This document shows, piece after piece, positions 892 to 52,861 of a stretch of DNA of 64,000 bases. The notes beneath the pieces are model-generated. The model did not search any database. It worked only from the letters and a program-made list of their open reading frames with translations, and was not told the DNA's origin. Every line of letters begins with the position of its first letter. Within the stretch, counting starts at the first letter, position 1. A program made the translations under genes and the position numbers. Source of the DNA: an uncultured Candidatus Saccharibacteria bacterium (GTDB lineage: Bacteria; Patescibacteriota; Minisyncoccia; Phycocordibacterales; UBA9973); NCBI GenBank assembly GCA_964554645.1, contig CAZKPK010000002.1, positions 1,788 to 65,787 on the forward strand, given 5' to 3'.

Positions 892-957
892 GTGGGATTT
901 ACCCCCACACCTTTCCTTGCGTCGCAAAATTTGCCAGTCTATTATCTAGATATAAAA

Positions 958-1434
958 ATGAAACATCTTTTAAAAAACATAATTCTCAGAAAAAATTCCT
1001 ATTTGGCGGGGGCAAAAACGCAAGGAAAGGTGTGGGGGTTTATGGTCGTTGAGGTATTGGTGGCTACCTCGATTATCACCGCTTCCATTTTGGCTACGAT
1101 GGTCGTCGCGCAAAAATCTGTTTATGTTGCTCGCCAAGCTCTTCATACAACCCAAGCAGCCTTTTTATTGGAAGAAGGAGCGGAAGCGGTCCGGATACTT
1201 AGAGACAATGCGTGGAGCAATATAGTTTCTCTTAATTCTTCGGAGTCCATAGGTATTTTTACCAGAACGGTTGTCGCTTCGAGTGTGAATCGTGATAATA
1301 CCACCAAAGATATATCTTCTACGGGCACGGACGATCCCGGAACAAAATTAGTGACCGTGGCAATATCTTGGCCAGAAGGGGGAGTGGTCGTGACCAAGAC
1401 TTTACAATTTTATATATCTGATATTTTTTCTTAA
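958..1434 (+). CDS. type IV minor pilin (PilV-like); the likely true start is the ATG at 958 inside the 892 ORF
   Basis: The region downstream of the internal Met reads ...KVWG|FMVVEVLVATSIITASIL, a prepilin signal. The conserved ...EEGAEAVRILRD motif is also present. Confidence 0.55.
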   Translation: MKHLLKNIILRKNSYLAGAKTQGKVWGFMVVEVLVATSIITASILATMVVAQKSVYVARQALHTTQAAFLLEEGAEAVRILRDNAWSNIVSLNSSESIGIFTRTVVASSVNRDNTTKDISSTGTDDPGTKLVTVAISWPEGGVVVTKTLQFYISDIFS

Positions 1435-3294: not shown

Positions 3295-3300
3295 ATTAGG

Positions 3301-3333
3301 TTGTAGTTTCTAGGTTCTAGGTGCTAGAATAGA
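3301..3333. repeat. CTAG-rich intergenic array (ctaggttctaggtgctagaa)
   Basis: Overlapping palindromic CTAG units are seen directly. Related arrays occur at 18141, 42483 and 48601. Confidence 0.5.
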
Positions 3334-8864: not shown

Positions 8865-10361
8865 ATGCGAGATAGAATTTTTTATGCAATTTGTTTTGGT
8901 TTTATTTTTGGGGTGCTTTGGCGCTCTTTTTTGTTTGTGAATTTTCACTTTATTGTTTTACTGGGTGTAATTTCTTTTGTTTTATTTTTATTTTTTAGTT
9001 TTATTTCAAGAAATAACTGGGGAATAATTATCTCTGTTCTGGTTCTGACATTCTCACTTGGAATTTTTCGTTTTCAGATGGTTGATGTTCCTGCGCCTAA
9101 TATTTTCGAATCACACGTAGGGAAAAATGTTTCTTTTTCTGGAAAAATTATCGATGAACCAGATATGAGAGAAAATAATCAAAAATTAACTATTGAGGTA
9201 GAGGTTGGTGAAAACCCACGCCAAGGCGGGGCAAGCAAAACAAAAATTTTAGTCACGGTTAATTTTGATGAGGATTTTAGATATGGAGATGAAGTTAGTT
9301 TTTCCGGGACATTAAAAAAACCGGAGAATTTTGTAACCGATCAAGGCAAGGATTTTGACTATCTAAATTATTTAAGGAAAAACGGGATTCATTACGTGAT
9401 GAATTACGCAGAGGCTGAAATTATTTCACGGGACCATGGAAATAAAATTAAAAGCGTCCTGTTCTTTGTGAAAGAAAAATTTTTGGAGAAAATCAATTTT
9501 GCTATTAAAAATCCTGATAATTTGCTAATGGGCGGGCTTATTTTAGGAGAGAAAGCGTCTTTTAGTCAAGAGTTGCGACAGAAATTTATCGATACTGGCA
9601 CGATCCATATTGTGGCGCTTTCCGGATACAATGTGACGATTGTCGCTGAATGGATTATGAAAATATTCGCGTTTTTGCCTCGCAATCTCGGCTTTGGCGC
9701 GGGCCTTCTCGGAATTTTGCTTTTTGTCGTGATGGCCGGCGGGCAATCTACCGCTGTCCGAGCTGGGGTGATGGCGTCTTTAGCGCTTATTGCGCGCGCG
9801 ACCGGCCGGAATTACGATGTCGCGCGCGCTCTTCTTCTGGCAGGCGTAGCAATGATTTTGTTAAATCCTTTTATTCTCGTCTATGATGTTTCTTTTCAGC
9901 TTTCTTTTATCGCGACAGTCGCCGTGATTTTTCTGGCGCCGAGAATTGAAAAATATTTTTTATGGGCGCCAGATTATTTTAAACTTCGGGATATTATATC
10001 AGTGACTTGCGCCGCTTATATTTTCGTTTTGCCTTTTATTTTATACAAAATGGGCAATCTTTCTTTAGTTGCTTTGCCGGCCAATATTTTAATTCTTCCT
10101 TTCATACCAATCACGATGATTTTCGGGTTTTTCACCGGTTTGGCGGGACTTATTTCATACATATTTGCCGTGCCATTTGGCTTTGTCTCATATTTGTTTT
10201 TGCATTATGAACTTTGGGTTGTTGATTTTTTCTCTAGTCTTCCGTTTGCTTCTTTTTCTCTTCCCAATTTTCCGCTTTTTCTCACAATTTTAATCTACCT
10301 CTATTTTATTTATAGACTTTTTGGGAGGAACATCAAAAGTTTTTTTACTGAATTCCAATAA
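8865..10361 (+). CDS. comEC: ComEC/Rec2 DNA-uptake channel: N-terminal and competence (membrane) domain, encoded separately from the MBL domain
   Basis: The protein is polytopic, with many hydrophobic helices. Its ...GTIHIVALSGYNVTIVA... region is typical of the ComEC Competence domain, and its 498-aa length fits that domain alone. Confidence 0.7.
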   Translation: MRDRIFYAICFGFIFGVLWRSFLFVNFHFIVLLGVISFVLFLFFSFISRNNWGIIISVLVLTFSLGIFRFQMVDVPAPNIFESHVGKNVSFSGKIIDEPDMRENNQKLTIEVEVGENPRQGGASKTKILVTVNFDEDFRYGDEVSFSGTLKKPENFVTDQGKDFDYLNYLRKNGIHYVMNYAEAEIISRDHGNKIKSVLFFVKEKFLEKINFAIKNPDNLLMGGLILGEKASFSQELRQKFIDTGTIHIVALSGYNVTIVAEWIMKIFAFLPRNLGFGAGLLGILLFVVMAGGQSTAVRAGVMASLALIARATGRNYDVARALLLAGVAMILLNPFILVYDVSFQLSFIATVAVIFLAPRIEKYFLWAPDYFKLRDIISVTCAAYIFVLPFILYKMGNLSLVALPANILILPFIPITMIFGFFTGLAGLISYIFAVPFGFVSYLFLHYELWVVDFFSSLPFASFSLPNFPLFLTILIYLYFIYRLFGRNIKSFFTEFQ

Positions 10362-10372
10362 AACTTGTTGCA

Positions 10373-10465
10373 GGCGTACTTTTTAGAAAGCCTTGCGCAG
10401 GCGGACGCGCCGAGCAGTTCGCTGGCATAGCAATGCCAGATAGATTGCTTTATAAAAAGTATGCC
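10373..10465. repeat. GC-rich palindromic module (outer 19-bp imperfect stem plus inner ctggcat...atgccag hairpin) at a convergent gene junction
   Basis: The core GTTCGCTGGC-hairpin-GCCAGATAGATTGCTTTATAAAAAGTATGCC is repeated in inverted orientation at 36359-36413. Both copies lie between convergent 3' ends. Confidence 0.5.
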
Positions 10466-10556
10466 AAGAAAGAGTTTTATTGAATTGAACCTTTTTTAAA
10501 TTTTCCTCTACAACAACTTCCCCCGCCTTCGCTAAAGCTACGGACGGGCAGGCAGT

Positions 10557-16396: not shown

Positions 16397-18139
16397 ATGC
16401 AAGAAAAAATAAAAAATTTAATCAAGGACGCGCTGAAAAATCTAAATATAGAGATGAGCGATGTTGGCTTGGAACATCCGGAAGATCTGAAAAATGGAGA
16501 TTATTCCACGAATGTGGCGCTGGTTGTCGCTAAAAATGTCAAAATCAGTCCAAAAGCATTGGCGGGAAAAATCGTGACAGAAATTTTGAGGTTAAACCTC
16601 GATAAATATATTGAAAAAGTAGAAGTGGCTGGCGCCGGTTTTATAAATTTCTATCTTTCCCGCAAATTTTTTGCCAGCTCGGTTGAAGAAATTGTCAATC
16701 AGGGAGAAAATGCCGGGAAAAATAATGTTCTAGCTGGCAAAAAAATAATGATTGAATACACCGACCCGAATCCTTTCAAGCCATTTCATATTGGACACTT
16801 AATGACGAACGCTATTGGGGAATCCGTAGCGAGAATTTTAGAGCATTCCGGCGCGGAGGTATCTCGGGCCAATTATCAGGGCGATATCGGTTTGCATGTG
16901 GCCAAGGCCATCTACGGCCTTTTGAAAGATGAAAAATTACAGGACAAGGCAGGCTCTCATATCTTGCAGTCGGCAAATATCGGCCAAGCTTATGCTCAAG
17001 GCGCGGAAGTTTACGAAAACAACAAGAAAGCAAAAAAAGAAATAGATGAAATAAATAAAAAAATTTACGCTAAGAGCGATAAAAAAATAAATGAAATGTA
17101 TGATTGGGGTTTCCAAGCGACGATGAAAGCATTTGAAGATTTATACCAAATTCTCGGCACGAAGTTTGATTTTTATTTTTTGGAAAGCCAAATGGCGCCG
17201 ATCGGGGAGAGAATTGTGAGAGATAATTTGGACAAAATTATAGATTCCAAGGGCAGTAAAATGATTTTTGAAGAATCAGAAGGCGCTATTATATTCAAGG
17301 CTGAAAAATACGATTCCCAACTTCACACCCGAGTCTTTATCACTTCGCAAGGTCTGCCTACATATGAAACCAAGGAATTGGGATTGACCGAGGAGAAATT
17401 CAGAACGGAGCCCAATTTAGATCTTTCCATCATTATTACCGCCAATGAACAGGCGGATTATATGAAAGTGGTTGCCAAAGCTGTTTCCCTGATTTATCCC
17501 GAGCACGGGAAAAAGATGCTTCACCTGACACATGGCATGATGCGCCTGCTGGGAGGAAAAATGAGCTCGAGAAAGGGTAATGTTGTAACCGGAGAATCTC
17601 TGCTTCGCGACACGGTGGCGCTAATAAGAGAAAAAATTAAAGAACGTGACTGGGCTGAAGCGGAAAAAAATAAAATTGCGGAAATTGTCGGTGTGGCGGC
17701 GATAAAATATTCGATTCTCCGTTCAGCATCCGGGAGCGATATTGTCTACAATCTAGAGGAATCAATTTCGACGGAAGGAGATTCCGGCCCGTATCTGCAA
17801 TACTCATTTGCGCGGGCAAAATCCATTTTAGAAAAGGCGCAGAAAGAAAATATCTTGCCGGATCCCCATGTTTTTCCGCCAGCAGTCTTTGAAGTGGAGA
17901 GGCTGTTGTACAAATTTCCGGAAGTTGTTCTGCGTTCCGCGCAAGAATACGAACCGCATTATATCGCAAACTATTTGATTGCAGTCGCTCGCGCCTTCAA
18001 TAGTTTTTATGGCAATATCGTTGTGGTGAACAAAAAAGACAAAACTTCCGCTTACAAAGTAGCCCTGACTTACGCTTTTATCTTCGTGATGAAAACCGGC
18101 CTATCTCTCCTCGGCATTCAAGCGCCGGAAAAAATGTAG
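16397..18139 (+). CDS. argS: arginine--tRNA ligase
   Basis: It has the class I HIGH motif (PFHIGHLMT) and a KMSKS-like motif (GKMSSRKG). Its length and overall pattern match ArgRS. The likely start is the ATG at 16397, just after the dut stop. Confidence 0.75.
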   Translation: MQEKIKNLIKDALKNLNIEMSDVGLEHPEDLKNGDYSTNVALVVAKNVKISPKALAGKIVTEILRLNLDKYIEKVEVAGAGFINFYLSRKFFASSVEEIVNQGENAGKNNVLAGKKIMIEYTDPNPFKPFHIGHLMTNAIGESVARILEHSGAEVSRANYQGDIGLHVAKAIYGLLKDEKLQDKAGSHILQSANIGQAYAQGAEVYENNKKAKKEIDEINKKIYAKSDKKINEMYDWGFQATMKAFEDLYQILGTKFDFYFLESQMAPIGERIVRDNLDKIIDSKGSKMIFEESEGAIIFKAEKYDSQLHTRVFITSQGLPTYETKELGLTEEKFRTEPNLDLSIIITANEQADYMKVVAKAVSLIYPEHGKKMLHLTHGMMRLLGGKMSSRKGNVVTGESLLRDTVALIREKIKERDWAEAEKNKIAEIVGVAAIKYSILRSASGSDIVYNLEESISTEGDSGPYLQYSFARAKSILEKAQKENILPDPHVFPPAVFEVERLLYKFPEVVLRSAQEYEPHYIANYLIAVARAFNSFYGNIVVVNKKDKTSAYKVALTYAFIFVMKTGLSLLGIQAPEKM

Positions 18140-18140
18140 A

Positions 18141-18193
18141 TTAAATTAGGTGCTAGGGACTAGTTGCTAGAACCTAGAACCTAGAACCTAACT
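18141..18193. repeat. CTAG-rich array (three tandem ctagaac units)
   Basis: Seen directly; it is related to the arrays at 3301, 42483 and 48601. Confidence 0.5.
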
Positions 18194-18194: not shown

Positions 18195-19853
18195 ATGACT
18201 CAAAAAGAAGCGTTGAATATTTTAAAAACTGGCGCGAATGTTTTTTTGACCGGCGAGCCGGGAGCGGGGAAGACGCACACCGTCAATAATTTTGTGAATT
18301 ATTTGCGCGCCTGCGATGTGGAGCCAGCGATTACCGCTTCGACTGGTATTGCCGCGACGCATATTGGCGGGATGACGATTCATTCTTGGAGTGGCATCGG
18401 CATTAAAACAAAATTGGATAAATATGATTTAGATAAAATTGCGAGCAGTGAATATATTGTAAGGCGTGTTGCTCGTACGCGGGTCTTGATTATTGATGAG
18501 ATTTCTATGCTCTCTATTAATATGCTCGAGATGGTGGATATAGTCTGTCGAGAAATAAAACAAAGCAGTGAGCCCTTTGGAGGAATTCAGATTATTCTCG
18601 TCGGTGATTTTTTCCAGTTGCCACCGATTATAAAAAGAGATTTTACAGAAGAAAAACAAAACAAACTTCTTGTAGACGTTCTTGTAGACGTCGGACGTCT
18701 ACAAGTGGGGAATTTTGCTTATGATAGCGGGGCCTGGGAGCGAGCGCGAATGGTTACTTGTTATTTGACTGAAAAACATCGGCAAGATGATACTGATTTC
18801 CTCTCGGTGCTGGGAGGCATCCGTTCTAACAATGTTTCGCAGGCGCATCGAAGTTACATTACTGCTCGGCATATTCGCGAGAATCAGACGCCAGAAAATA
18901 TTACTAAACTTTTTTCGCATAATGTGGATGTAAATCGGATAAATAACGTGGAACTTGCGAAATTAAAAAAAGAAATTAAATGTTTCAAAATGTCTGGAAG
19001 TGGAAATGATAAAGTAGTGGAGATACTGAAGAAAGGATGTTTATCGCCGGAGAATTTGGAGCTCAAAATCGGCGCGGTCGTGATGTGCACCAAAAATAAT
19101 CCAAAAGAAAGATTTGTCAATGGCACACTTGGCACGGTGACAGGCTACGAAGAATTTAGCGGACACCCGATTATTAAAACTAAGAATGGACGGAGTCTTG
19201 TAATTGCGCCGATGGATTGGACAGTTGAAGAGAATGGTAAAATTCGCGCGCAAATAACCCAAATTCCGCTTCGCCTCGCGTGGGCGATCACGGTGCACAA
19301 AAGTCAGGGGATGAGTCTGGATGCGGCGGTGATGGATTTGTCGCAAGTGTTTGAATTTGGGCAGGGGTATGTAGCGCTCTCACGCGTGCGCAGACTCTCT
19401 GGATTATATTTGCTTGGTTTCAATGAGCAGGCGCTGAAAGTACATCCAGAAATTCTTAAAAAAGATATTGACTTTAAGAAAAGTTCCGAAGAAACAGCGC
19501 GAGTTTTTGGGGAGATTTTAGAAAATGATCTTCAAAAAATACATAATAATTTTGTATTGGCGTGCGGAGGGAAGGTTTTCCACCTCGACCCGATGGTCAT
19601 CGGGTCACCCCTCAAGAGGGGAATTAAAATGGAAAACACAGAGGGCGCGCCGAGTACGGCGCGCCCAAAAGCATTTGCCGAAATCAGAACAAAACACCCC
19701 AACGCTTATCGAAAATGGATGCCAGAGGAAGAAATGGAAATGGTATCACAATTCAAAAATGGAAAATCTATCAGAAATATTTCTGCGCTTTCTGGTCGAA
19801 AAGTTGGCGGCATACGCGCTCGGCTCGTCAAACTAGGATTAATAGAAAAATAA
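18195..19853 (+). CDS. PIF1/RecD-family ATP-dependent DNA helicase with a C-terminal HTH domain
   Basis: It has the Walker A motif LTGEPGAGKTH and the ILVGDFFQLPP motif, plus a C-terminal helix-turn-helix-like tail. The ORF also contains in-frame GC-rich repeat insertions at 18669-18705 and 19566-19670. Confidence 0.7.
   Translation: MTQKEALNILKTGANVFLTGEPGAGKTHTVNNFVNYLRACDVEPAITASTGIAATHIGGMTIHSWSGIGIKTKLDKYDLDKIASSEYIVRRVARTRVLIIDEISMLSINMLEMVDIVCREIKQSSEPFGGIQIILVGDFFQLPPIIKRDFTEEKQNKLLVDVLVDVGRLQVGNFAYDSGAWERARMVTCYLTEKHRQDDTDFLSVLGGIRSNNVSQAHRSYITARHIRENQTPENITKLFSHNVDVNRINNVELAKLKKEIKCFKMSGSGNDKVVEILKKGCLSPENLELKIGAVVMCTKNNPKERFVNGTLGTVTGYEEFSGHPIIKTKNGRSLVIAPMDWTVEENGKIRAQITQIPLRLAWAITVHKSQGMSLDAAVMDLSQVFEFGQGYVALSRVRRLSGLYLLGFNEQALKVHPEILKKDIDFKKSSEETARVFGEILENDLQKIHNNFVLACGGKVFHLDPMVIGSPLKRGIKMENTEGAPSTARPKAFAEIRTKHPNAYRKWMPEEEMEMVSQFKNGKSIRNISALSGRKVGGIRARLVKLGLIEK
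18669..18705. repeat. GACGTC-type palindromic element inside the helicase CDS, in-frame
   Basis: The unit cttgtagacgtt is followed by the perfect 25-nt palindrome cttgtagacgtcGgacgtctacaag. A related palindrome cluster lies at 58012-58075. Confidence 0.55.
19566..19624 (+). repeat. partial copy (D) of the four-hairpin GC-rich element, in-frame within the helicase CDS
   Basis: cccgatggtcatcggg...cacccctcaagaggggaat matches hairpins 3 and 4 of the elements at 41607, 52756 and 58074. It is followed by a 10-bp GC hairpin (gggcgcgccg-agta-cggcgcgccc). Confidence 0.55.
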
Positions 19854-19992: not shown

Positions 19993-20409
19993 ATGAAATC
20001 AAAAGAAGCAAAACCGTCTGAGGTAGGAGATAATAAAACAACCCCAGAGGCAAAGTTAACAAAACAAGAAATCTTGGATCTAATTGAAAAAGCATCTCAC
20101 CAAACTTGGATGAGGCAGGCGCATAGGGACAAAGGAACCAACATGGATAAACTTTCACAGGCAGTGTCAGATGGCGATCGCGAAAGGGCGGCAGATGCTT
20201 GGAAAGAGCTAGAGAAAGAAAAACCAAAAACTCGGGCGGAGGCTGTGACTCTGCTGGCTAGAAGGTCTCACGAAATGTGGTTGGCCCATAAAAGAGTGCT
20301 TGTTTCTACAGAAGAATTTGATCTTAATCCAAATGATCATGACCGCGAGCGGGCAGAAGATATCATAAAAGCGCTTGAAGTTCGCGGAGTCTTATCTTAT
20401 GGAGAATAA
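19993..20409 (+). CDS. hypothetical protein (138 aa, charged and helical)
   Basis: The ORF is open but has no recognisable motifs. Its end overlaps the ileS start. Confidence 0.4.
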   Translation: MKSKEAKPSEVGDNKTTPEAKLTKQEILDLIEKASHQTWMRQAHRDKGTNMDKLSQAVSDGDRERAADAWKELEKEKPKTRAEAVTLLARRSHEMWLAHKRVLVSTEEFDLNPNDHDRERAEDIIKALEVRGVLSYGE

Positions 20410-23400
20410 TCAGGATAAAAACAAAAAATCAGACGCAACGTTGCGCGAAGAAAGTGTTTTGGAATTTTGGCGGGAAAATAAAATTTTTGAGAAATCTTTA
20501 AAACAGACAGAAGGGAAAAAAGAATTTATTTTTTTTGAAGGTCCGCCGACAGCGAATGGCAAGCCGGGAATTCATCATCTGGAAGCGCGAGCGTTCAAAG
20601 ACGCTATTCCAAGATATAAAACGATGCAAGGTTTTTACGTCCGTCGCAAGGCCGGGTGGGATACGCACGGGCTAGCGGTAGAAATTCAGACAGAGAAAAA
20701 ACTCGGCCTGAATTCTAAAAAAGCGATTGAAAAATACGGCATCGCCAAGTTCAATCGGGAATGCAAAGAAAATGTTTGGGAATATTTGGATGTTTGGAAT
20801 AAATTTACCGAGCGGATCGGTTTTTGGGTGGATCAGGAGAATCCGTATGTGACATACCGCAATGACTATATTGAATCTGCCTGGAATGTGCTAAAAAAAA
20901 TAAATGACCGGAATTTGCTTTACAAAGATTATAAAGTAGTGCCGTGGTGTCCGAGATGCGGGACCGCTCTTTCCACCCACGAGCTGGTGCAAGGATACGA
21001 GGAGGTGAAAGATTTGTCGGTTTATGTGAAGTTTAAGGTGCGTGGGGGCGGAAATGATGCTTCTGCGGGGTCGCTGTCTCCGTCTGCTGACGGAGCGCTG
21101 CCTCTCGGCTCGTCAGCCTGCGAGACACCCCGACAAAAGCACATTTCCGCCCCCACTTTCGTTCTTGCCTGGACGACGACGCCGTGGACTTTGCCGGGAA
21201 ATGTGGCGCTGGCAGTAGGGAAGGACATTGATTATGTGAAAGTTAAAACTGGAAATGAAATTTACATTTTGGCCAAGGAAAGACTTTCAATACTCACTGA
21301 AGCTTATGAAATTGTTGGAGAAATAAAAGGCAAAGATTTGGTAGGTTTAGAATATGAACCGCTTTTTCCATTTCTGCCTGCCATTATTTCTGAAGCCGAA
21401 AAACCTAAATTAGAAAAAGCTTTTAAAATATATGAAGCGGATTTTGTAAATATACAAGATGGCACAGGGATTGTGCATACGGCGGTAATGTATGGACAAG
21501 ACGATTTTGAACTGGGCGCCAAAGTCGGTTTGCCCAAGCATCACTTGGTTAATCTTGAAGGCAAATTTATAAAAGGCACAGGATTTTTAGAAGGAAGATT
21601 TGTAAAAGAAAAAGACGAAAACGGCAAACCGACTATAGATATAGATATTATCAAATATCTAACGGACAAAAACTTATTTTACAAAAAAGAAAATTATGAA
21701 CATTCCTATCCGCACTGCTGGCGCTGTCACACGGCGCTTATTTATTACGCTCGCGATTCTTGGTATATCAAAATGTCCGACCCGACAATAAAGGAACAGA
21801 TGATAAAAGAGAATAAAGGGATAAATTGGGAGCCGTCATATATTCAAGAAGGGCGTTTCGGCGAATGGCTTCGGGAGATAAAAGACTGGGCAATATCTCG
21901 CGAAAGATATTGGGGGACGCCGCTACCGATATGGGCTTGCGAATCCTGCCAGAAAATCAGCGTCATCGGAAGCATTGCGGAATTGAAAGAAAAAACAAAA
22001 AAGTCCGGCAATACATATTTTGTGATGCGGCATGGGGAAACTACCACCAATTTGAGAAATTTGGTTAGCACGGTAATGAATAGCGGGAGCCATTTGACCG
22101 ATGAAGGAAAAAGAAAGACAAGAGGAATGGGCGAACTTCTGAAGAAAAAAGGTATTGATCTGATTTTTACTTCGCCGTTTAATCGCGGCAGAGAAACGGC
22201 AAAAATAATGCAGGAAATTATAGGTATTGGTGACGAAAATGTTTGTGAAGATAAGCGCTTGGGAGAGATGAATGTAAAAAGTTATGAAGGAAGAACTTGG
22301 GCCGAATATCACAACGACTTTCCGAAAACGCCAGAATATTTTGATAAAGCAAAAAACGGAGATGAATCTTTGAGAGACATAAAAAAAAGAATGATGGATT
22401 TTCTTTTTGAGCTTGAAGAGAAATATCAGAACAAAAAAATTCTCATTATTACTCACGGCGGGCCGACCTGGCTTATGGCCGCGGGGGTGAAAATGTTTGA
22501 TGTGGAAAATACGCTTGCGATGGTTCGCGATAAAGAAAATTTTCATTATCTCAGAAATTCGGAAATACAAAAATTATCATTCACACCTTTTCCTCATGAT
22601 CAATTTGGCGATTTTGACCTGCATCGTCCATATATTGATGAAGTTCCACTTGTTTGTTCCCACTTGACAGGCTCAGGACAGGCCTGTGGCGGAAAATTGA
22701 CGCGCGTTCGCGAAGTGATGGATGTTTGGTTTGATTCCGGTTGTATGCCATTTGCGCAAGATCATTATCCTTTTGACGCCAAAAAAATTCTATATCCGGC
22801 AGATTTTATTTCGGAAGCAATCGATCAGACCCGCGGATGGTTCTACACTTTGCATGCCATCGGAGTGCTGATGGGTCGCGGGAAAGTTTTTAAAAATGTA
22901 ATCTGCCTCGGGCTTCTTTTAGACGCTCAGGGCAAAAAAATGTCCAAATCGCTGGGTAATGTCGTTGATCCTTGGGTGATGATGGATAAATATGGCGTGG
23001 ACACTTTGCGTCTTTGGATGTATTCCGTGAATCAACCGGGCGAATCGAAAAATTTTGACGAGAAAACGATATCTTTGCTTCATCAGCAAGTTTTCGGCTT
23101 GCTTTATAACGTGCTAGCTTTTTACGAACTATATCGAGATAAAGAAAAAGAGATAAATGATCGTCCCAAATCCAAAAATATTTTGGATATTTGGATCTTG
23201 GTCAAATTGGATGAATTAGCAAAATTAATTACCGCGAATCTTGATAATTATAAATTACTTGAACCAACCAGAGCGCTACGAGATTTTATCGGCGATCTTT
23301 CCACCTGGTATCTGCGTCGTTCGCGGGAACGGATCAAAGAAGGAAGCAATGAAGCTAAGCAGACTTTATATTTTGTCCTGAAAACTCTTGCCACAGTCCT

Positions 23401-24022
23401 GGCTCCTTTCGCGCCTTTTGCGGCAGAAGATATTTGGCTGAAATTAAGAAATAAAAATGACGCAGAGAGCGTGCATTTAGTTAAATGGCCAAAAATGCCA
23501 AAGAGTTTCTTTGGCATTTTTGGCAGCAAAGAAAATAAAACTTTGGAAAACATGCAAACAGTCAGGAAAATTGTCACCCTTTGCCTTGAAGCCCGCCAAA
23601 AAGCAGGGATAAAAGTTCGCCAGCCTCTGGCTTCACTTAAATACAAAGTTAAAAACAAAAAATTATCAGGCGAGTATCTTGATCTGATAAAAGATGAGCT
23701 TAACGTGAAAGAAATTATCGAAACAGACTTAATTGAAAATGAAGTTGAACTGGATGTTAAAATCACAGAGGAATTAAAACAGGAAGGAAATTATCGAGAG
23801 CTGGCGCGGGCTTTGCAAGATATGCGCAAAAAACTTGGATTAACTCCGGATGATACAATTTCACTTGTTTTTGAAGCGAATGACGCAGGCAAAAAGTTAA
23901 TTGAAAAATTTGCAACCGATCTTAAAAAAACTGTTTTGGTGTCCAAGATAGAATTTGGAAATAATAATGGCGAAGAAATAAAAATAGATGATTTGGTGTT
24001 TAAAATAAAAATTTATAAGTAG
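20399..24022 (+). CDS. ileS: isoleucine--tRNA ligase with two in-frame insertions: a GC-rich segment and a histidine-phosphatase-like domain
   Basis: It has a HIGH-type motif (PPTANGKPGIHHLEARA), WTTTPWTLPGN, LHRPYIDE, DVWFDSG and KMSKSLGN. The likely start is the ATG at 20399. Residues spanning about 22010-22560 read RHGETT...SPFNRGRETA...ITHGG, which is PGM/His-phosphatase-like. Confidence 0.8.
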   Translation: MENNQDKNKKSDATLREESVLEFWRENKIFEKSLKQTEGKKEFIFFEGPPTANGKPGIHHLEARAFKDAIPRYKTMQGFYVRRKAGWDTHGLAVEIQTEKKLGLNSKKAIEKYGIAKFNRECKENVWEYLDVWNKFTERIGFWVDQENPYVTYRNDYIESAWNVLKKINDRNLLYKDYKVVPWCPRCGTALSTHELVQGYEEVKDLSVYVKFKVRGGGNDASAGSLSPSADGALPLGSSACETPRQKHISAPTFVLAWTTTPWTLPGNVALAVGKDIDYVKVKTGNEIYILAKERLSILTEAYEIVGEIKGKDLVGLEYEPLFPFLPAIISEAEKPKLEKAFKIYEADFVNIQDGTGIVHTAVMYGQDDFELGAKVGLPKHHLVNLEGKFIKGTGFLEGRFVKEKDENGKPTIDIDIIKYLTDKNLFYKKENYEHSYPHCWRCHTALIYYARDSWYIKMSDPTIKEQMIKENKGINWEPSYIQEGRFGEWLREIKDWAISRERYWGTPLPIWACESCQKISVIGSIAELKEKTKKSGNTYFVMRHGETTTNLRNLVSTVMNSGSHLTDEGKRKTRGMGELLKKKGIDLIFTSPFNRGRETAKIMQEIIGIGDENVCEDKRLGEMNVKSYEGRTWAEYHNDFPKTPEYFDKAKNGDESLRDIKKRMMDFLFELEEKYQNKKILIITHGGPTWLMAAGVKMFDVENTLAMVRDKENFHYLRNSEIQKLSFTPFPHDQFGDFDLHRPYIDEVPLVCSHLTGSGQACGGKLTRVREVMDVWFDSGCMPFAQDHYPFDAKKILYPADFISEAIDQTRGWFYTLHAIGVLMGRGKVFKNVICLGLLLDAQGKKMSKSLGNVVDPWVMMDKYGVDTLRLWMYSVNQPGESKNFDEKTISLLHQQVFGLLYNVLAFYELYRDKEKEINDRPKSKNILDIWILVKLDELAKLITANLDNYKLLEPTRALRDFIGDLSTWYLRRSRERIKEGSNEAKQTLYFVLKTLATVLAPFAPFAAEDIWLKLRNKNDAESVHLVKWPKMPKSFFGIFGSKENKTLENMQTVRKIVTLCLEARQKAGIKVRQPLASLKYKVKNKKLSGEYLDLIKDELNVKEIIETDLIENEVELDVKITEELKQEGNYRELARALQDMRKKLGLTPDDTISLVFEANDAGKKLIEKFATDLKKTVLVSKIEFGNNNGEEIKIDDLVFKIKIYK

Positions 24023-27332: not shown

Positions 27333-28586
27333 ATGTTAAAAAACAATAAAAAGGAAAATGATTTGATGGAAAAAATAGTTTCGCTTTGTAAAAGGCGCGG
27401 TTTCGTTTTTGCTGGTTCAGAGATTTACGGAGGGCTCGCAGGCACTTATGATTGGGGGCATTACGGGGTTGCTTTGAAAAATAATATCAAGCAAAGTTGG
27501 TGGAAAAAATTTGTGGATGGCCGGAGAGACATATACGGCATAGATACAGCAATTTTAATGAGTAGTAAAGTTTGGGAAGCCGCAGGGCATGTGGCCAATT
27601 TTGCGGATCCGCTTGATGGTAAGCAATTCAATACAATGCTTCAGACGTCTGTCGGGGCGAAAAAAGATGAAATTGCAATTTCTTACTTGCGTCCAGAAAC
27701 AGCCCAGGGAATGTTTGTAAATTTCAAGAATATTATTGATGCCCTGCATCCTAAATTACCTTTCGGAATGGCGCAGATAGGCAAAGCGTTTAGGAACGAA
27801 ATAGCGCCTCGAGATTTTCTTTTTCGCCAACGAGAATTTGAACAAATGGAAATTGAGTATTTTATAAGACAAGAAGATTGGGAAAAATATTTTGAATATT
27901 GGAAAAGCGAGATGCTTGATTGGATGGAGGAAATTGGGCTTGATCTGGCAAAGATTCACGAGTTGGAAGTGCCATCTCTGGATCGCGCTCATTATTCTAA
28001 AAGAACAATTGACTTTGAATTTGATTATCCTTTTGGCAGAAAAGAACTTTTTGGTCTTGCTTATAGAGCGGATTTTGATTTAAAGAATCACCAGCTTGAA
28101 TACATAGATGAACCCTCCGACGCTGAAGCTAAGACGGGCAATGGAAAAAGCGAGAAAATAATTCCGCATGTTATAGAACCGACTTTTGGTGTTGATCGCG
28201 CCGTGCTCGCGTTGCTTCTTTCTGTTTATGCTGAGGATGAGAAAGATGGAGAGATGCGTTCATATTTAAAATTTAAACCTTCCATTGCGCCAGTTATATG
28301 CGCCGTTTCGCCATTACTTAAAAATAAACCAGAGCTTGTAGAATATGCCAATACTAAAATCTATGCCCCGCTTAAAGCAGAATTCGGACGGGTAGCATGG
28401 GACGATAATGGCAATATTGGAAAACGCTATCGCCGACAAGACGAAATCGGTACGCCATTTTGCATTGTGGTAGACTTTGATACGCTGACAGATAATATGG
28501 TAACAGTCCGCGATCGCGATACGGGGAAGCAAGAAAGAATAAAAGTGGAAGATTTAAAGAAATATATCAAAGAAAAAATAATTTAA
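27333..28586 (+). CDS. glyQS: glycine--tRNA ligase (dimeric class II type)
   Basis: The N-terminus reads RRGFVFAGSEIYGGLAGTYDWGHYGVALKNNIKQSW, the GlyRS signature. Class II motifs are present and the length is 417 aa. Confidence 0.8.
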   Translation: MLKNNKKENDLMEKIVSLCKRRGFVFAGSEIYGGLAGTYDWGHYGVALKNNIKQSWWKKFVDGRRDIYGIDTAILMSSKVWEAAGHVANFADPLDGKQFNTMLQTSVGAKKDEIAISYLRPETAQGMFVNFKNIIDALHPKLPFGMAQIGKAFRNEIAPRDFLFRQREFEQMEIEYFIRQEDWEKYFEYWKSEMLDWMEEIGLDLAKIHELEVPSLDRAHYSKRTIDFEFDYPFGRKELFGLAYRADFDLKNHQLEYIDEPSDAEAKTGNGKSEKIIPHVIEPTFGVDRAVLALLLSVYAEDEKDGEMRSYLKFKPSIAPVICAVSPLLKNKPELVEYANTKIYAPLKAEFGRVAWDDNGNIGKRYRRQDEIGTPFCIVVDFDTLTDNMVTVRDRDTGKQERIKVEDLKKYIKEKII

Positions 28587-29086
28587 TGACAACTTGCACT
28601 TTAGGATTTTTATTTAAAAATGGGAAGATAATTCTCGCAAAAAAGAAGCGTAAATTTGGTGTAGATAAATGGAATGGATACGGAGGTGTAATGGAAAAAG
28701 GGGAAACAAAAGCAAAATGTCTTGCGCGTGAGACGAAAGAAGAATGTGGAGTGATTATTAGGTTAGAGAAATGTAAAGAATTGGGATATATAGTTTTCTC
28801 TTTTGAAGGCAAAAGTGAACGAGATATGAAGGTATATATGTATCGGGTAGATGAATTTTTGGGCGAACCAGAGGAATCAGAAGAAATGGGTGAGCCAAGA
28901 GAATTTGATGTGGATAAAATTCCATATAATGAAATGATAGTCGGGGATGATAAATTTATTCCCTTTGTTGTTGAGGGTAAAAAATTTGAAGGTAGGATTT
29001 ATTTTTCGGAAAATGGAGAAAAATTGCTAAGGTATAAGGTCTTTGAAATAAAAAACGATAAAGACAATGAAATTAAATTAAAATAA
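28586..29086 (+). CDS. NUDIX hydrolase
   Basis: It has the Nudix box GGVMEKGETKAKCLARETKEECGV. Confidence 0.8.
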   Translation: MTTCTLGFLFKNGKIILAKKKRKFGVDKWNGYGGVMEKGETKAKCLARETKEECGVIIRLEKCKELGYIVFSFEGKSERDMKVYMYRVDEFLGEPEESEEMGEPREFDVDKIPYNEMIVGDDKFIPFVVEGKKFEGRIYFSENGEKLLRYKVFEIKNDKDNEIKLK

Positions 29087-29127
29087 TTAAGTTATTTTAT
29101 TTTAATTTAATTTCATTGTCTTTATTC

Positions 29128-36358: not shown

Positions 36359-36413
36359 GGCATACTTTTTATAAAGCAATCTATCTGGCCAAGCTTGGCC
36401 AGCGAACTTCTCA
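36359..36413. repeat. inverted-orientation copy of the GCCAG-hairpin module; here the hairpin is the perfect palindrome ctggccaagcttggccag
   Basis: It matches 10417-10465 in reverse complement. It lies between the convergent rpsR and efp 3' ends. Confidence 0.5.
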
Positions 36414-36501
36414 TCGCTCAAAAAAATAATAAATGGATTACCATTTTTATTTTCTAAGCTCCTGCGAAAGGCTTTCTAAAAAGTATGCCTGCAACGAGTT
36501 T

Positions 36502-39329: not shown

Positions 39330-41573
39330 TTATGTTTCCTGCCTGCCGGCAGGCAGGTCTCCGGTTTCCGTGCGTTCAATTTTTTCTAATACCTCTCTCG
39401 GTTTTGCGCCTTCTCCCGGACCGATTACTCCGCGTTCTTCCAGTTTGTCCATCAGGCGCGCCGCGCGCGCGTATCCTAATTTTAATTTTCTTTGCAGATA
39501 GGAAGTTGAGGCCTTGCCGGCTTCTATTACGCAAGCCCTCGCTTCCTCATACAATTCATCATCTTCTTCAGAGTCTTCATCATACAAGCTTTCTCCGCCC
39601 AGGGCGGATCCGCCTTGGGCGGAAAAAATACTCTTATCAGCCGAAATAGAGCCTGTAGTCAGGGTTATCTCTCCCAATATTTCATCTTTGTAAGCGTCCG
39701 CTAGATAATTAACAACCTTTTTAACTTCGGTTTCTGAAATAAACGCGCTCTGCAAGCGTTCTGGTTGAGCGTCGCCCGAGGCATAGAGCATATCGCCGGC
39801 TCCCAAAAGTTTCTCTGCACCGCCAGCATCCAAGATAGTGCGCGAGTCCACTTGCGAAGAAACTTTCAGGGCGACGCGGGCTGGGATATTCGCCTTGATC
39901 AAACCAGTGATGACATTTACTTCCGGGCGCTGGGTGGAAATTATCAAGTGTATGCCCACAGCTCTGGACATCTGAGCGAGGCGGACAATAGCCGATTCCA
40001 GCTCCCTAGGATAGGAACTCATTATGTCTGCTAACTCGTCTATTATGATGATGATATACGGCAGGCGATCCCTAAACGCCTCACTTTGCGAGGCGTCGGG
40101 CGAACCGCCTTTGGCGGTTTTAGCCACACCACTGTAGACATTGTTGTGATAAGATTCTATATCTCGCACCGATTCTGCTTCCAATATATCGTAACGGCGG
40201 TCCATTTCCTTGGCCGCCCATTTCAAAGCTAAAATCGTTTTTTTAGGATCGGTTATGACCGGAGTCAATAAATGCGGAATGTTGTTGTAAAGGGTTAGTT
40301 CTACCCGTTTTGGATCGATCAGTATGAATTTTAGGTCATCCGGCCCGTTTCGGTATAAGAGAGAAGTAATCATAGAATGAATAGCGACTGATTTTCCGGA
40401 GCCGGTTGTTCCGGCGACTAAGCAATGAGGCATTTTGGCAAGATTGCCGAAGATTGATTTGCCTCCGATATTGCGGCCGAGAGCGATCGTCAGAGGTTTG
40501 GAAGAATTTTGGAATTTGTCGTCGGCCAGAAGAGTGGCCAGACCGACCAAAGATTTTGTCCTATTTGGAATTTCAATGCCGACCAAGGATTTTCCCGGGA
40601 TTGGCGCTTCTATTCGTATCGGGTGCGCCGCCAGCGCAAGCGAGAGATCATTCTGCAGAGCGACGATGCGCGAAAGTTTCATTCCTTCGGCTGGTTTCAA
40701 TGCATAACGAGTAACGGTCGGTCCGACTGTTACTTCGTCCATTTCCACTTCGATGCCGAAGTTCAAGAGCGTGCGCTTTATTATGTTTGCGTTCGCTTTT
40801 ATGTCGCCCGTATTCGGTTTTCCTTGATCTTCTTCCAAGAGGGACAACGGGGGAGGGACGTAGGTGGAAACTAATCCGCCGCGCCTCTTTTTAATCGGAA
40901 TTTCTTCTTCTTCATCTTCCCCTTTTTTTATACCCAATGCTTTTTTTATTTTTTCACCAGTAGTTTCCGTTTCTCTTTCTTCCCTAAACACTTCTTCTGA
41001 AGCGTCGGGCGATCCAGCTTCGCTGGATTTAGCCTCCTCCTCTTCCACTTTTCTTCTGGTAATAAAATCCCAAATTTTTTTGAAAAATGGCAGGAGATCC
41101 AATTTTGTATCGAATATCACCAGAATTGAAATTATTAAAATCGCGCCGAGAAAAATAATACTGGCATATACATCAAAGAGGGAAACAAGAGGTATTGATA
41201 AAACTTCTCCTAATAATCCGCCGGAACGCCTGCCCGCCAATTGGGCGGGTGAACCTCCCGCGATGTCTATCAAACCCAATCCAGAGAGAAGAAACATTAC
41301 CGCGCTGATCGCGCTTCTCCATCCGATTTCTGGAGTTTCTGATCTGACAAATGAAGACCCCAAAAGAACAAGCAGAGCCGGTAAAAGAATATAGCCGACA
41401 CCCAACAAGTAATAAAGTTTTTCATAAATAAACTTGCCTGCGATTCCCGTCATATCAAATGCGGACATCAAAAAAAATAATGCCAAAACAAAAAAAACTA
41501 TTGCCATAATGCCATGTTTGGTATTGCTCTTTAGTCCGGGACCTTCCTGATTTTTCTCTTTCTTATTTGCCAT
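39330..41573 (-). CDS. ftsK: DNA translocase FtsK/SpoIIIE
   Basis: It has N-terminal TM helices, a low-complexity acidic linker, a motor domain with the Walker A motif GTTGSGKS, and a C-terminal gamma-like winged helix. Confidence 0.85.
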   Translation of the reverse strand: MANKKEKNQEGPGLKSNTKHGIMAIVFFVLALFFLMSAFDMTGIAGKFIYEKLYYLLGVGYILLPALLVLLGSSFVRSETPEIGWRSAISAVMFLLSGLGLIDIAGGSPAQLAGRRSGGLLGEVLSIPLVSLFDVYASIIFLGAILIISILVIFDTKLDLLPFFKKIWDFITRRKVEEEEAKSSEAGSPDASEEVFREERETETTGEKIKKALGIKKGEDEEEEIPIKKRRGGLVSTYVPPPLSLLEEDQGKPNTGDIKANANIIKRTLLNFGIEVEMDEVTVGPTVTRYALKPAEGMKLSRIVALQNDLSLALAAHPIRIEAPIPGKSLVGIEIPNRTKSLVGLATLLADDKFQNSSKPLTIALGRNIGGKSIFGNLAKMPHCLVAGTTGSGKSVAIHSMITSLLYRNGPDDLKFILIDPKRVELTLYNNIPHLLTPVITDPKKTILALKWAAKEMDRRYDILEAESVRDIESYHNNVYSGVAKTAKGGSPDASQSEAFRDRLPYIIIIIDELADIMSSYPRELESAIVRLAQMSRAVGIHLIISTQRPEVNVITGLIKANIPARVALKVSSQVDSRTILDAGGAEKLLGAGDMLYASGDAQPERLQSAFISETEVKKVVNYLADAYKDEILGEITLTTGSISADKSIFSAQGGSALGGESLYDEDSEEDDELYEEARACVIEAGKASTSYLQRKLKLGYARAARLMDKLEERGVIGPGEGAKPREVLEKIERTETGDLPAGRQET
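39591..39629. repeat. CCGCC double-hairpin element inserted in-frame in the C-terminal low-complexity region of ftsK
   Basis: ttctccgcccagggcggatccgccttgggcggaaaaaat closely matches the intergenic copy at 42846-42882. On the coding strand it encodes FSAQGGSALGGE. Confidence 0.55.
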
Positions 41574-41606
41574 GAAAGTATTTTAGCATATTTTTAGAAT
41601 TTAAAA

Positions 41607-41699
41607 TTCTCCTCTTTGAGGAGTACCCGTTACAGCGGGGGAGGTGGAATATATCCACCCCGTCCCGATGAACATCGGGGCACCCTTCAAGAGGGGAAT
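41607..41699 (+). repeat. four-hairpin GC-rich structured element, copy A (candidate sRNA or repeat family)
   Basis: The element reads ttCTCCTCtttGAGGAG - GGGGGAGGTGGA-loop-TCCACCCCG - CCCGATGaaCATCGGG - CCCTTCaaGAGGGGaat. A TAGAAT -10-like hexamer lies 6 nt upstream. Copies occur at 52756, 58074 and 19566. Confidence 0.55.
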
Positions 41700-41740
41700 G
41701 AAATGCTTGCTTTTCTTCATGTCCCATATATAATGGACAA

Positions 41741-42845: not shown

Positions 42846-42882
42846 TTCTCCGCCCAAAGCGGATCCGCCTCAGGCGGAAATG
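42846..42882. repeat. CCGCC double-hairpin element, intergenic copy
   Basis: It reads ttctccgcccaaagcggatccgcctcaggcggaaatg, with two adjacent short GC hairpins. Confidence 0.55.
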
Positions 42883-48600: not shown

Positions 48601-48668
48601 AGAATTAGGTTTTAGTCACTAGGTTCTAGCTTCTAGTATGTTACTAGTTACTAGCACCTAGAAACTAG
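48601..48668. repeat. CTAG-rich intergenic array
   Basis: It contains cactaggttctagcttctagtatgttactagttactagcacctagaaactagcacctaa. Confidence 0.5.
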
Positions 48669-51545: not shown

Positions 51546-51583
51546 TTATTTTGTTTCTTAAGTCTTAAATTATCAGCAAATAA

Positions 51584-51629
51584 ATATACGGGATTTTTCG
51601 CGAAGCTCTCTAGGTTGAATCCCGTATAT
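51584..51629. promoter_or_regulatory. perfect 12-bp inverted repeat (atatacgggatt...aatcccgtatat) with a 22-nt spacer, overlapping the promoter (gtatatataat) of the downstream gene
   Basis: Seen directly in the sequence. Confidence 0.5.
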
Positions 51630-51647
51630 ATAATCTTAAAAAACAAA

Positions 51648-52748: not shown

Positions 52749-52755
52749 AGTTTAA

Positions 52756-52848: not shown

Positions 52849-52861
52849 TAGATTCTACAAA

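What the first reader, a model, noticed from the sequence alone, without database searches (positions are those of the whole stretch)
21041..21165. Short GC-rich palindromic elements inserted in-frame inside essential genes (ileS, ftsK, PIF1 helicase)
Several GC-rich palindromic repeats that also occur intergenically are found inside long ORFs without breaking the frame. There is an about 125-nt segment (about 65% GC against about 38% flanking) in ileS at 21041-21165. It encodes RGGGNDASAGSLSPSADGALPLGSSACETPRQKHISAPT immediately before the conserved WTTTPWTLP motif. A CCGCC double hairpin lies at 39591-39629 in the ftsK linker, identical in type to the intergenic copy at 42846. A 25-nt perfect GACGTC palindrome lies at 18681-18705, and four-hairpin element copy D plus a 10-bp GC hairpin lie at 19566-19670, in the PIF1 helicase between its core and C-terminal HTH. 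In-frame invasion of coding sequences by palindromic elements is established for Rickettsia palindromic elements. I am not aware of an equivalent description for this kind of genome, so this may be analogous behaviour.
Basis: partly seen in the sequence, partly recalled or inferred. Interest (0 to 1): 0.6.

Follow-up and report, generated by a model that had tools for sequence, protein, structure and literature searches.

The report
In-frame palindromic repeat element in Patescibacteria genes
The GC-rich segment inside the isoleucyl-tRNA synthetase gene is one copy of an apparently undescribed, highly structured palindromic repeat that sits in frame inside many housekeeping genes of ultra-small Patescibacteria, as Rickettsia palindromic elements do in Rickettsia.

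Summary
Window 21042-21156 is a 115-nt imperfect hairpin (63% GC against 41% for the window) read in frame within ileS of a Candidatus Nomurabacteria contig. It adds 33 residues just before the WTTTPW editing motif. About half of 120 orthologues and all solved IleRS structures lack it.

It belongs to a large family. Its core occurs in 85 Patescibacteria genomes and in at least 120 metagenome contigs. Of 200 verified copies, 154 lie in long open frames of TGT, UvrD, IleRS, LeuRS, TsaD, Fmt, Def, UvrB, RecG, MnmA and other genes, on either strand. Ninety per cent use just two of six reading frames.

The anatomy is unusual. A roughly 65-nt three-way junction is nearly invariant in loops and junctions, all helices covary, and the 20-30 bp outer stem differs from site to site. 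The same codon can be empty, filled, or filled in the opposite orientation.

Two more diverged copies lie between genes in the window. The ftsK double hairpin (10 residues) and the PIF1 fragment (about 12 residues) are also real in-frame insertions of other small repeat families.

Best reading: a mobile or converting selfish palindromic element tolerated in surface loops, like Rickettsia palindromic elements. There was no Rfam match and I found no description in the literature. How it moves, and whether it serves the host, is unknown.

The parts
20399..24022 (+). ileS (type 2 IleRS, 1207 aa) of a Candidatus Nomurabacteria bacterium; host gene of the element.
   Evidence: 100% identical protein P0001. 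Pfam tRNA-synt_1, Anticodon_1 and an inserted His_Phos_1 domain. PDB 8c8w E = 7.5e-226.
21042..21156 (+). Whole palindromic element (long hairpin). The net insertion relative to the empty site is 33 codons, roughly 21050-21148.
   Evidence: Covariance model R1 scores it 110.7 bits, E = 1.8e-25.
21042..21071 (+). 5' arm of the outer stem P1. Its sequence is specific to the ileS site.
   Evidence: Pairs with 21127-21156. Compensatory changes among ileS orthologues, e.g. GGCGGAAATG/CATTTCCGCC versus GGCAAAAATG/CATTTTTGCC. 26 of 27 P1 pairs show changes on both sides.
21078..21095 (+). Hairpin 1: a 7-bp stem with five freely covarying pairs and a conserved UGCU loop.
   Evidence: 98.8% of cells paired, 4-6 pair types per position. 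Highest mutual information in the alignment.
21103..21125 (+). Hairpin 2: TCTC-GGCT-CGTC-AGCC-[TGC bulge]-GAGA. This is the most conserved module.
   Evidence: The upper stem covaries in copies selected without reference to it: GGCC/GGCC, GCGC/GCGC, GACT/AGTC, GTGC/GCAC. A closing pair, columns 63:89, switches G:C (67 copies) to C:G (24 copies).
21127..21156 (+). 3' arm of the outer stem P1.
10358..10480 (-). Diverged member of the same family, lying between two convergent genes.
   Evidence: R1 54.4 bits, E = 2.6e-11; hairpin 2 shows a compensatory change to GGCG/CGCC. ORF map.
36359..36489 (+). Second diverged member, between convergent genes, with a 50-nt AT-rich insertion in hairpin 2. It shares the arms GGCATACTTTTTATAAAGC with 10358-10480.
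   Evidence: R1 22.5 bits, E = 0.0028. (D19). The same arms occur in other genomes: L051, L039, L068.
39595..39623 (-). Double-hairpin repeat CCGCCC-nnn-GCGG-AT-CCGCC-nnn-GGCGG in frame in ftsK. It is a 10-residue insertion (SAQGGSALGG) between the motor and gamma domains.
   Evidence: The same repeat lies inside ileS of two other genomes.
42850..42878 (+). Intergenic copy of the double-hairpin repeat.
   Evidence: It lies between ORFs ending at 42502 and starting at 43155.
19579..19628 (+). Partial copy of the four-hairpin repeat, in frame in the PIF1-like helicase gene. It is an insertion of about 12 residues relative to orthologues.
   Evidence: (D5).
41605..41703 (+). Full four-hairpin repeat, in the intergenic region between the divergent ftsK gene and the next ORF. 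Further copies lie at 52754-52863 and 58104-58170.
   Evidence: (D5, D17, D18).
18681..18705 (+). 25-nt perfect palindrome CTTGTAGACGTC-G-GACGTCTACAAG inside PIF1. It lies in a variable region, and an insertion is not shown.
   Evidence: related copy at 58013-58037.

Best explanation
The ileS segment is one resident copy of a family of non-autonomous palindromic repeat elements specific to Paceibacteria-type Patescibacteria.

Each copy is about 96-115 nt. It has a roughly 65-nt core that folds, as a single strand, into a three-way junction: an outer stem, a hairpin with a free stem and a UGCU loop, and a bulged hairpin with a CGUC loop. A 20-30 bp outer stem encloses the core.

Shown:
- The family occupies many unrelated sites in genes and between genes.
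- Sites exist as empty, filled and opposite-orientation alleles.
- Copies decay or are deleted, leaving stem remnants.
- The variable hairpin is more alike among copies within one genome than among orthologous copies.

Inferred:
- The core is copied or converted between sites inside a genome, probably as a folded single strand handled by a protein not yet identified.
- It can be flipped by recombination between its own arms.
- In these gene-dense genomes most landings are inside genes. Only copies that keep the frame and are read in one of two benign frames survive. Those frames encode GSLS..ALPLGSSACETP or GVSQADEPRGSA..GDSDP, both rich in small and polar residues.
- Surviving copies add about 33 residues of flexible loop at a tolerant surface site. 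In IleRS this is the turn of the beta-hairpin that leads into the CP1 editing domain.
For: Distribution.
- The 21-nt core motif gives 109 stretches in 85 genomes, all Patescibacteria by title apart from one MAG labelled Burkholderiales (L090) and several labelled only 'bacterium'.
- A pattern from the 5' half gives at least 120 further metagenome loci. There are none in 2.9 million viral contigs.

Coding context.
- Of 200 verified copies, 154 lie in open stretches of at least 150 aa. Of those, 138 use the frames 'same strand 0' or 'opposite strand 2'.
- The copies fall into 45 site clusters, 30 of which use these two frames. Ten of the other 15 lie within the first 30 codons of the open stretch.
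- Frame 'same 1' is free of stop codons in 77 of 95 copies yet is almost never used.
- Host genes include TGT, UvrD, IleRS, LeuRS, TsaD, Fmt, Def, a CCA-adding enzyme, RecG, UvrB, MnmA and RluA.

Alleles and turnover.
- Filled, empty and flipped alleles occur at the same codon in UvrD, TsaD, Fmt, Def and TGT.
- Remnants or decayed copies occur in L001, L105 and L113.
- The insert is scattered across the IleRS tree.

Structure.
- Covariation score is 0.408 against 0.142 in shuffles (0 of 500 reach it). Hairpin 1 is 98.8% paired. Hairpin 2 covaries.

Conservation.
- The core is 92% identical among ileS copies, against 48% at flanking third codon positions and 64% in the arms.
- The hairpin-1 stem is identical in 6 of 20 same-genome, different-site pairs, against 4.4% of pairs from different genomes and sites.

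Protein context.
- AlphaFold2 gives insert residues 220-249 pLDDT below 50 and coil, between strands 201-215 and 254-260.
Against: - No transposase, target-site duplication or autonomous parent element was found.
- Copy number per genome is low for the exact core: 67 of 85 genomes have one.
- The same few codons are occupied in many species, and the outer arms are site-specific. This fits old resident insertions with conversion better than frequent transposition.
- Near-invariance of loops and junctions, together with covariation in every helix, is what a functional RNA or single-stranded DNA motif looks like.
- A:C mismatches outnumber G:U 125 to 37 on the strand that is sense in ileS, whatever the host gene orientation. 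This points to the opposite strand as the folded one, and a purely passive element does not explain it.
Confidence: 0.6

Rival explanations
1. The core is a functional structured nucleic-acid motif kept by selection. It could be a binding site or substrate for a dedicated protein, folded on the strand complementary to the ileS mRNA. It could also be an invertible in-frame cassette that switches a surface loop between two peptides. In-frame residence in genes would then be a consequence of very dense genomes, not of parasitism.
For: - Loops (UGCU, CGUC), the UGC bulge and the junction strands are nearly invariant, while all three helices covary.
- The core is 92% identical where flanking synonymous sites are 48% identical.
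- The wobble asymmetry depends on the strand and not on host gene orientation.
- Both orientations occur at the same codon in at least four genes, and both keep the frame open.
- Orientation differs in about 30% of same-site pairs once flanks fall below 95% identity.
Against: - Many lineages have lost it or let the core decay at the same site while keeping a hairpin.
- About half of IleRS orthologues do well without it.
- Either orientation relative to transcription argues against a role in the host mRNA.
- There was no Rfam match, no partner gene was found, and none of 9 near-identical pairs was flipped.
- Template switching at quasi-palindromes can keep arms paired without selection (established in E. 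coli; my own knowledge).
Confidence: 0.25
2. The segments are ordinary lineage-specific loop expansions of each protein, that is, ancestral coding sequence. Their palindromic nature would be incidental or generated locally by hairpin-templated mutation.
For: - Insertions sit in variable loops or linkers.
- IleRS orthologues carry several different insert types at this one site.
- ileS copies share homologous arms, as vertical descent predicts.
Against: - The same 65-nt core, identical at nearly every base, occurs in unrelated genes, on either strand and between genes.
- Independent local origin cannot produce that.
Confidence: 0.04
3. The segment is an assembly chimera or a sequencing artefact at a GC-rich hairpin.
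For: The window comes from a metagenome-assembled genome, and read support could not be inspected.
Against: - The same insertion at the same codon occurs in many independent assemblies from different studies. It always preserves the frame and shows compensatory substitutions.
Confidence: 0.01
4. The segment is an intervening sequence removed after transcription or translation, such as a mini-intron, an intein-like segment or translational bypassing. It would then never appear in the mature IleRS.
For: - A strong hairpin inside a coding region.
- A precedent exists in mitochondrial 'byp' elements and T4 gene 60 (my own knowledge).
Against: - Copies inside genes always keep the frame, avoid stop codons and use only two benign frames. 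A removed segment would not need any of this.
- There were no intron or ribozyme matches in Rfam.
- At 33 residues it is far too short for an intein.
Confidence: 0.03

Closest known systems
Rickettsia palindromic elements (RPE; Ogata et al. 2000, as summarised in PMC10969869)
   Same: - Palindromic repeats of about 100-150 bp in a small, AT-rich, reduced genome.
- Many copies are inserted in frame in unrelated housekeeping genes.
- They encode a conserved peptide at sites compatible with the protein fold.
- No transposase is associated.
   Different: - A different phylum and an unrelated sequence.
- Here the conserved part is a central three-way junction with covarying helices, and the outer arms are site-specific.
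- Both orientations are used at the same codon.
- The same sites are occupied across many species and families.
REP / REPIN elements and CGTC-tagged REPs (PMC3733652)
   Same: - Short GC-rich hairpins that can form larger hairpins.
- Some copies lie inside replication and repair genes.
- The CGTC class has no dedicated transposase. RPE-4 and RPE-6 are classed as CGTC REPs.
- TGTC and CCTC, which that paper lists as variants of the CGTC tag, precede the two small hairpins here.
   Different: - REP stems are 8-9 bp with A/T first pairs and a CCA tail. That is not seen here.
- In REPINs the conserved units are the arms and the spacer varies, which is the reverse of this element.
- REPs are overwhelmingly extragenic.
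Bacterial MITEs that fuse in frame (Coxiella QMITE, PMC5896051; ERIC/RU, PMC2759123)
   Same: Small non-autonomous repeats that occasionally extend or interrupt ORFs in frame.
   Different: - MITEs have conserved terminal inverted repeats and target-site duplications and derive from insertion sequences.
- Neither conserved termini (in copies within genes) nor duplications were found here.
- Three quarters of copies are inside genes.
Coding palindromes in Nematomorpha mitochondrial genes (PMC6649704)
   Same: Long inverted repeats embedded in protein-coding genes, with both arms translated.
   Different: Those are gene-specific perfect inverted repeats with no shared core. They are not a dispersed family.
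Intragenic invertons (DNA inversions within genes that recode proteins; my own knowledge, not checked here)
   Same: A segment flanked by inverted repeats inside a gene, found in both orientations with the frame kept.
   Different: - Inversion here is seen only between species.
- No invertase was found, and no within-population switching has been shown.

Membership tests
RPE-like in-frame palindromic repeats (functional class) | Short palindromic repeat present in many copies. | tested here: met
   115-nt hairpin. 200 verified copies. Three copies in the window.
RPE-like in-frame palindromic repeats (functional class) | Inserted in frame in unrelated protein-coding genes, encoding a conserved peptide. 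| tested here: met
   154 of 200 copies lie in long open frames, 138 of them in two frames. Host genes are listed.
RPE-like in-frame palindromic repeats (functional class) | Insertion site compatible with the protein fold (a surface loop). | tested here: met
   IleRS insert residues have pLDDT below 50 and are coil, between two confident strands. There is a gap at residues 217/218 of structure 8c8w. The model is of moderate overall quality (mean pLDDT 66.5).
Rickettsia RPE families proper | Sequence homology to RPE-1 to RPE-10. | not tested
   No RPE sequences were available in the tools. The host phylum differs, and homology is not expected.
MITE | Conserved terminal inverted repeats shared by all copies. 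| tested here: not met
   Arms of copies within genes differ between sites. Only the intergenic subfamily shares arms across genomes.
MITE | Target-site duplication. | tested here: inconclusive
   Filled and empty comparisons for ileS, UvrD, TsaD, Fmt and Def show no clear direct repeat. Flanks are diverged.
MITE | A related autonomous insertion sequence with a transposase. | not testable with these tools
   Whole genomes could not be scanned. Genes between paired copies are a methyltransferase and others, not transposases.
REP / REPIN | A 20-40 nt hairpin with a terminal GTAG or CGTC tag, an 8-9 bp stem and a short tail. | tested here: not met
   TGTC and CCTC precede the hairpins, but the stems are 7 bp and a bulged 8 bp, begin with C:G or T:A, and lack a CCA tail (against the description read).
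REP / REPIN | Association with a RAYT (Y1 transposase) gene. | not testable with these tools
   This needs a census of complete genomes.
Any Rfam RNA family (including self-cleaving ribozymes and introns) | Match to a curated covariance model. | tested here: not met
   No match at the gathering threshold in the window. Only chance-level miRNA and snoRNA matches at E up to 10. A hammerhead reading of CUGACGAG was examined by eye and rejected, because that sequence lies inside hairpin 2.
Intragenic inverton | A segment flanked by inverted repeats, found in both orientations within one population. | not testable with these tools
   Both orientations were seen between species only. None of 9 flipped among pairs with at least 98% identical flanks.

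The most novel reading that the evidence does not exclude
The three-way-junction core is a functional single-stranded nucleic-acid motif of Paceibacteria, folded on the strand opposite to the ileS mRNA and recognised by a dedicated, still unknown protein. It copies or converts itself into palindromic landing sites and can be inverted in place. If so, dozens of housekeeping proteins carry a switchable two-peptide loop. This would be a new kind of site-resident, invertible, in-frame genetic element, not a decaying MITE.
Probability: 0.22. Interest if true: 0.85.

Novelty: new variant of a known kind. Interest (0 to 1): 0.72.

Why it matters
Patescibacteria have some of the smallest and densest bacterial genomes, and they are usually described as poor in repeats. 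This analysis shows that their core translation, tRNA-modification and DNA-repair enzymes carry a shared, highly structured repeat read through as protein.

Three consequences follow:
- Part of the puzzling length variation and low-complexity inserts in proteins of this group is explained. That matters for annotation, alignment and phylogenomics.
- The element is a candidate new structured RNA or single-stranded DNA motif, with covariation strong enough for a curated family.

The two-orientation, two-frame design also makes concrete hypotheses about inversion and gene conversion directly testable with existing metagenomic reads.

Tried and rejected
- **Rfam.** Searches of the region and of the whole window found nothing meaningful.
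- **Hammerhead reading.** CUGACGAG on the minus strand resembles a hammerhead box. I rejected this because the box is paired inside hairpin 2 and no GAAA junction exists.
- **Single long hairpin.** The minimum-free-energy fold is not the structure that covariation supports. The three-way junction is.
- **Inverted target copy.** I considered that one arm is an inverted copy of the host target, suggested by a QEN-like stretch in L101. I dropped it after aligning ileS arms, which are homologous to each other.
- **Target-site duplication.** None was recognisable.
- **Orientation versus GC skew.** The result is confounded by the purine richness of the coding strand and is uninformative.
- **Simple flip between close relatives.** The best pair (L078/L139, 92% flank identity) turned out to have different arms, so it is not a clean inversion.
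- **Terminator role of the intergenic copies.** The consensus scanner finds no terminator there. This remains speculation.
- **Transposase between paired copies.** I found a methyltransferase, DsbA-like, PD-(D/E)XK and LTD proteins, not a transposase.
- **Viral contigs.** No copy was found.
- **Sister orthologues.** DNA for two empty-site sister orthologues (P0104, P0118) was unavailable.
- **Four-hairpin repeat.** Its pattern was not found in the other loci, so it may be specific to this genome.
Full report
**The sequence itself.** The window is a contig of a Candidatus Nomurabacteria bacterium (Patescibacteria, also called the Candidate Phyla Radiation). The IleRS encoded at 20399-24022 is 100% identical to an NCBI protein of that name.

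- Positions 21041-21165 are 63% GC in a 41% GC window. Only 0.1% of 125-nt windows reach 64%.
- The segment is a long imperfect hairpin. Its arms are 21042-21071 and 21127-21156, with perfect 15-nt ends.
- It folds far better than shuffled sequence: -75.7 kcal/mol, z = -7.1.
- It is read through in frame.
- In the alignment to the closest solved structure, IleRS2 8c8w, residues 222-254 have no counterpart between residues 217 and 218 of the structure.
- An AlphaFold2 model built with 71 homologues gives residues 220-249 pLDDT below 50 and coil. They sit between confident strands 201-215 and 254-260, at the entry to the CP1 editing domain, which has pLDDT above 90.

**Orthologues.** I aligned 120 IleRS orthologues at 62-83% identity.
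- About half have an empty site (K-G-QENT-YILAWTTTPW).
- Thirteen carry the same peptide family (SAGSLSPSADGALPLGSSACETPR).
- Many others carry different inserts at the same position. At the DNA level these are also hairpins.
- The closest relative (83% identity) keeps only GGCGG-TATCTCT-GCCGGC, a remnant of the outer stem.
- On a neighbour-joining tree the insert is scattered in at least eight places, each next to empty-site sisters.
- An empty site reads AGA GGA CAA GAA AAT GTA TAT, which makes the net insertion 33 codons.

**A large family.**
- The 21-nt core motif CTCGGCTCGTCAGCCTGCGAG gives 109 stretches in 85 species-representative genomes. By record title all are Patescibacteria, apart from one MAG labelled Burkholderiales (L090) and several labelled only 'bacterium'. 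The named groups are Nomura-, Kaiser-, Zambryskii- and Moranii-bacteria, Paceibacterota and Minisyncoccia; the labelled Patescibacteria also include some MAGs titled Saccharibacteria.
- Only nine of these are in ileS.
It gave nothing in 2.9 million viral contigs.
- After filtering, 200 true copies remain, and 154 of them lie in stop-free stretches of at least 150 aa.
- Host genes include TGT (two sites), UvrD/PcrA (two sites), IleRS, LeuRS, TsaD, Fmt, Def, a CCA-adding enzyme, RecG, UvrB (two sites, both filled in one genome), MnmA, an RluA-like synthase and a ComEA-like protein.

**Anatomy.** An ungapped alignment of 95 copies shows the following core:

GGGGT-CGCTGT-[CT nnnnn TGCT nnnnn AG]-CGCTGCC-[TCTC GGCT CGTC AGCC (TGC) GAGA]-C-ACCCC

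- It is enclosed by a 20-30 bp stem whose sequence differs from site to site.
- Covariation is strong. Hairpin 1 is 98.8% paired, with 4-6 pair types at each of five positions.
- In the outer stem, 26 of 27 pairs change on both sides.
- The overall covariation score is 0.408 against 0.142 in shuffles, and 0 of 500 shuffles reach it. Slid registers score 0.10-0.22.
- An extra pair, columns 63:89, switches G:C (67 copies) to C:G (24 copies).
- In copies chosen without reference to hairpin 2, its upper stem covaries freely, while its loop, bulge and lower stem stay fixed.
- No Rfam family matches.

**Reading frames.**
- Ninety per cent of copies within genes use either 'same strand, frame 0' (..GSLSxxxxALPLGSSACETP..) or 'opposite strand, frame 2' (..GVSQADEPRGSAxxxxGDSDP..).
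- Counted by independent site, 30 of 45 clusters use these frames. Ten of the other 15 lie in the first 30 codons of the open stretch, so they are probably upstream of the true start.
- This is more than avoidance of stop codons. Frame 'same 1' is open in 77 of 95 copies but would encode an Arg/Cys/Leu-rich peptide, and it is almost never used.

**Dynamics.**
- Filled, empty and opposite-orientation alleles occur at the same codon in UvrD, TsaD, Fmt, TGT and Def. Decayed copies also exist.
- Among ileS copies, the core outside the search motif and outside the free stem is 92% identical. Flanking third codon positions are 48% identical and the arms 64%.
- The free stem of hairpin 1 is identical in 6 of 20 same-genome, different-site pairs. 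The figure is 4.4% for pairs from different genomes and sites, and 10.4% for orthologous pairs. This indicates copying or conversion of cores within a genome, while the arms stay with the site.
- One ileS orthologue (L113) keeps arms homologous to those of the window copy around a different, apparently decayed core.
- A:C mismatches in the outer stem outnumber G:U 125 to 37 on the strand that is sense in ileS, whatever the host orientation. The wobble-tolerant strand is therefore the other one. The host mRNA does not impose the structure.

**The rest of the window.**
- Model R1 finds two diverged members, at 10358-10480 (-) and 36359-36489 (+). Both lie between convergent genes and share arms that also occur in other genomes.
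- The ftsK double hairpin (39595-39623) is a 10-residue insertion relative to an orthologue. It recurs between genes at 42850-42878 and inside ileS of two other genomes.
- The PIF1 segment 19579-19628 is a partial four-hairpin repeat. It is an insertion of about 12 residues, with three intergenic copies in the window.
- The 25-nt palindrome in PIF1 exists and has a relative at 58013-58037, but it is not a clear insertion.
- The peptide of the 10-bp GC hairpin is shared by orthologues.
- IleRS orthologues also carry several other short, recurrent insert peptides. Small in-frame palindromes therefore seem to be a general feature of these genomes.

**Interpretation.** The best-supported reading (confidence 0.6) is a selfish, non-autonomous palindromic element family. 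It is tolerated in frame in surface loops, and it spreads or converts within genomes.

- It works like Rickettsia palindromic elements (reviewed in PMC10969869).
- It fails the tests for a classical MITE, because copies within genes have no shared termini and no duplication was found.
- It fails the tests for REP elements as described in PMC3733652.
- The main rival (0.25) is that the core is a selected, functional folded motif or an invertible cassette. The data do not exclude this, and the conservation pattern positively suggests it.
- Against that rival are frequent loss and decay, and the fact that arms stay paired even around a decayed core. The latter points to a mechanical cause such as quasi-palindrome template switching (my own knowledge).

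I found no description of such elements in Patescibacteria.

Noticed in passing
window 22019-22510 (IleRS residues about 542-705): A complete histidine-phosphatase domain (PF00300, with the RHGET motif) is inserted inside the IleRS catalytic core. All 120 top homologues share it, and a few also carry an HD domain.
   Followed up: partly
L082:2566-5556 (LeuRS of another Paceibacteria genome): This LeuRS carries a NUDIX domain (PF00293, residues 406-521) inserted after the editing domain. It is a second tRNA synthetase in this clade with an embedded hydrolase domain.
   Followed up: no
window 22667-22687: A small hairpin, ACAGGC-n9-GCCTGT, lies inside ileS. It encodes an 8-residue insert (HLTGSGQA) that the structure 8c8w lacks and that 26 of 120 orthologues share.
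   Followed up: partly
window 901-1039 and 5904-5934: A 22-bp perfect inverted repeat (ACCCCCACACCTTTCCTTGCGT) surrounds a 95-nt AT-rich spacer. A separate 14-bp hairpin shares the ACCCCCACACC end, so this may be another repeat family.
   Followed up: no
window 3279-3330, 18129-18180, 48588-48639: A CTAG-rich repeat of about 50 nt (AATTAGGT..CTAGG..CTAG); the 18129-18180 copy overlaps the 3' end of the ORF that ends at 18139. Its function is unknown (family D8).
   Followed up: no
window 29058-29125: A perfect 29-bp inverted repeat made only of A and T lies at the end of ORF 28586-29086. It could be a terminator or a recombination site (I3).
   Followed up: no
window about 41010-41025 and 40075-40100 (ftsK, minus strand): Two more small GC hairpins lie inside ftsK: CCAGC-gaa-GCTGG and ACGCCTC-gcaaagt-GAGGCGT. 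Each lies beside a ..GSPDAS.. peptide, and neither changes the length relative to the orthologue.
   Followed up: partly
window 43155-47327 and 49200-57200: Very large ORFs with internal tandem and dispersed repeats of 84 to 420 nt. They look like surface or adhesin-type repeat proteins (families D1-D3, D6, D7, D9, D11, D12, D14).
   Followed up: no
IleRS orthologues P0002-P0120 (alignment): Several other short insert peptides recur at scattered sites in scattered lineages: PVRNDGSQSEPVSNGTR, PAPEQARYGAS, SPLSLLRRGVGE and EPVRNASGITDAG. This suggests further in-frame repeat families.
   Followed up: no
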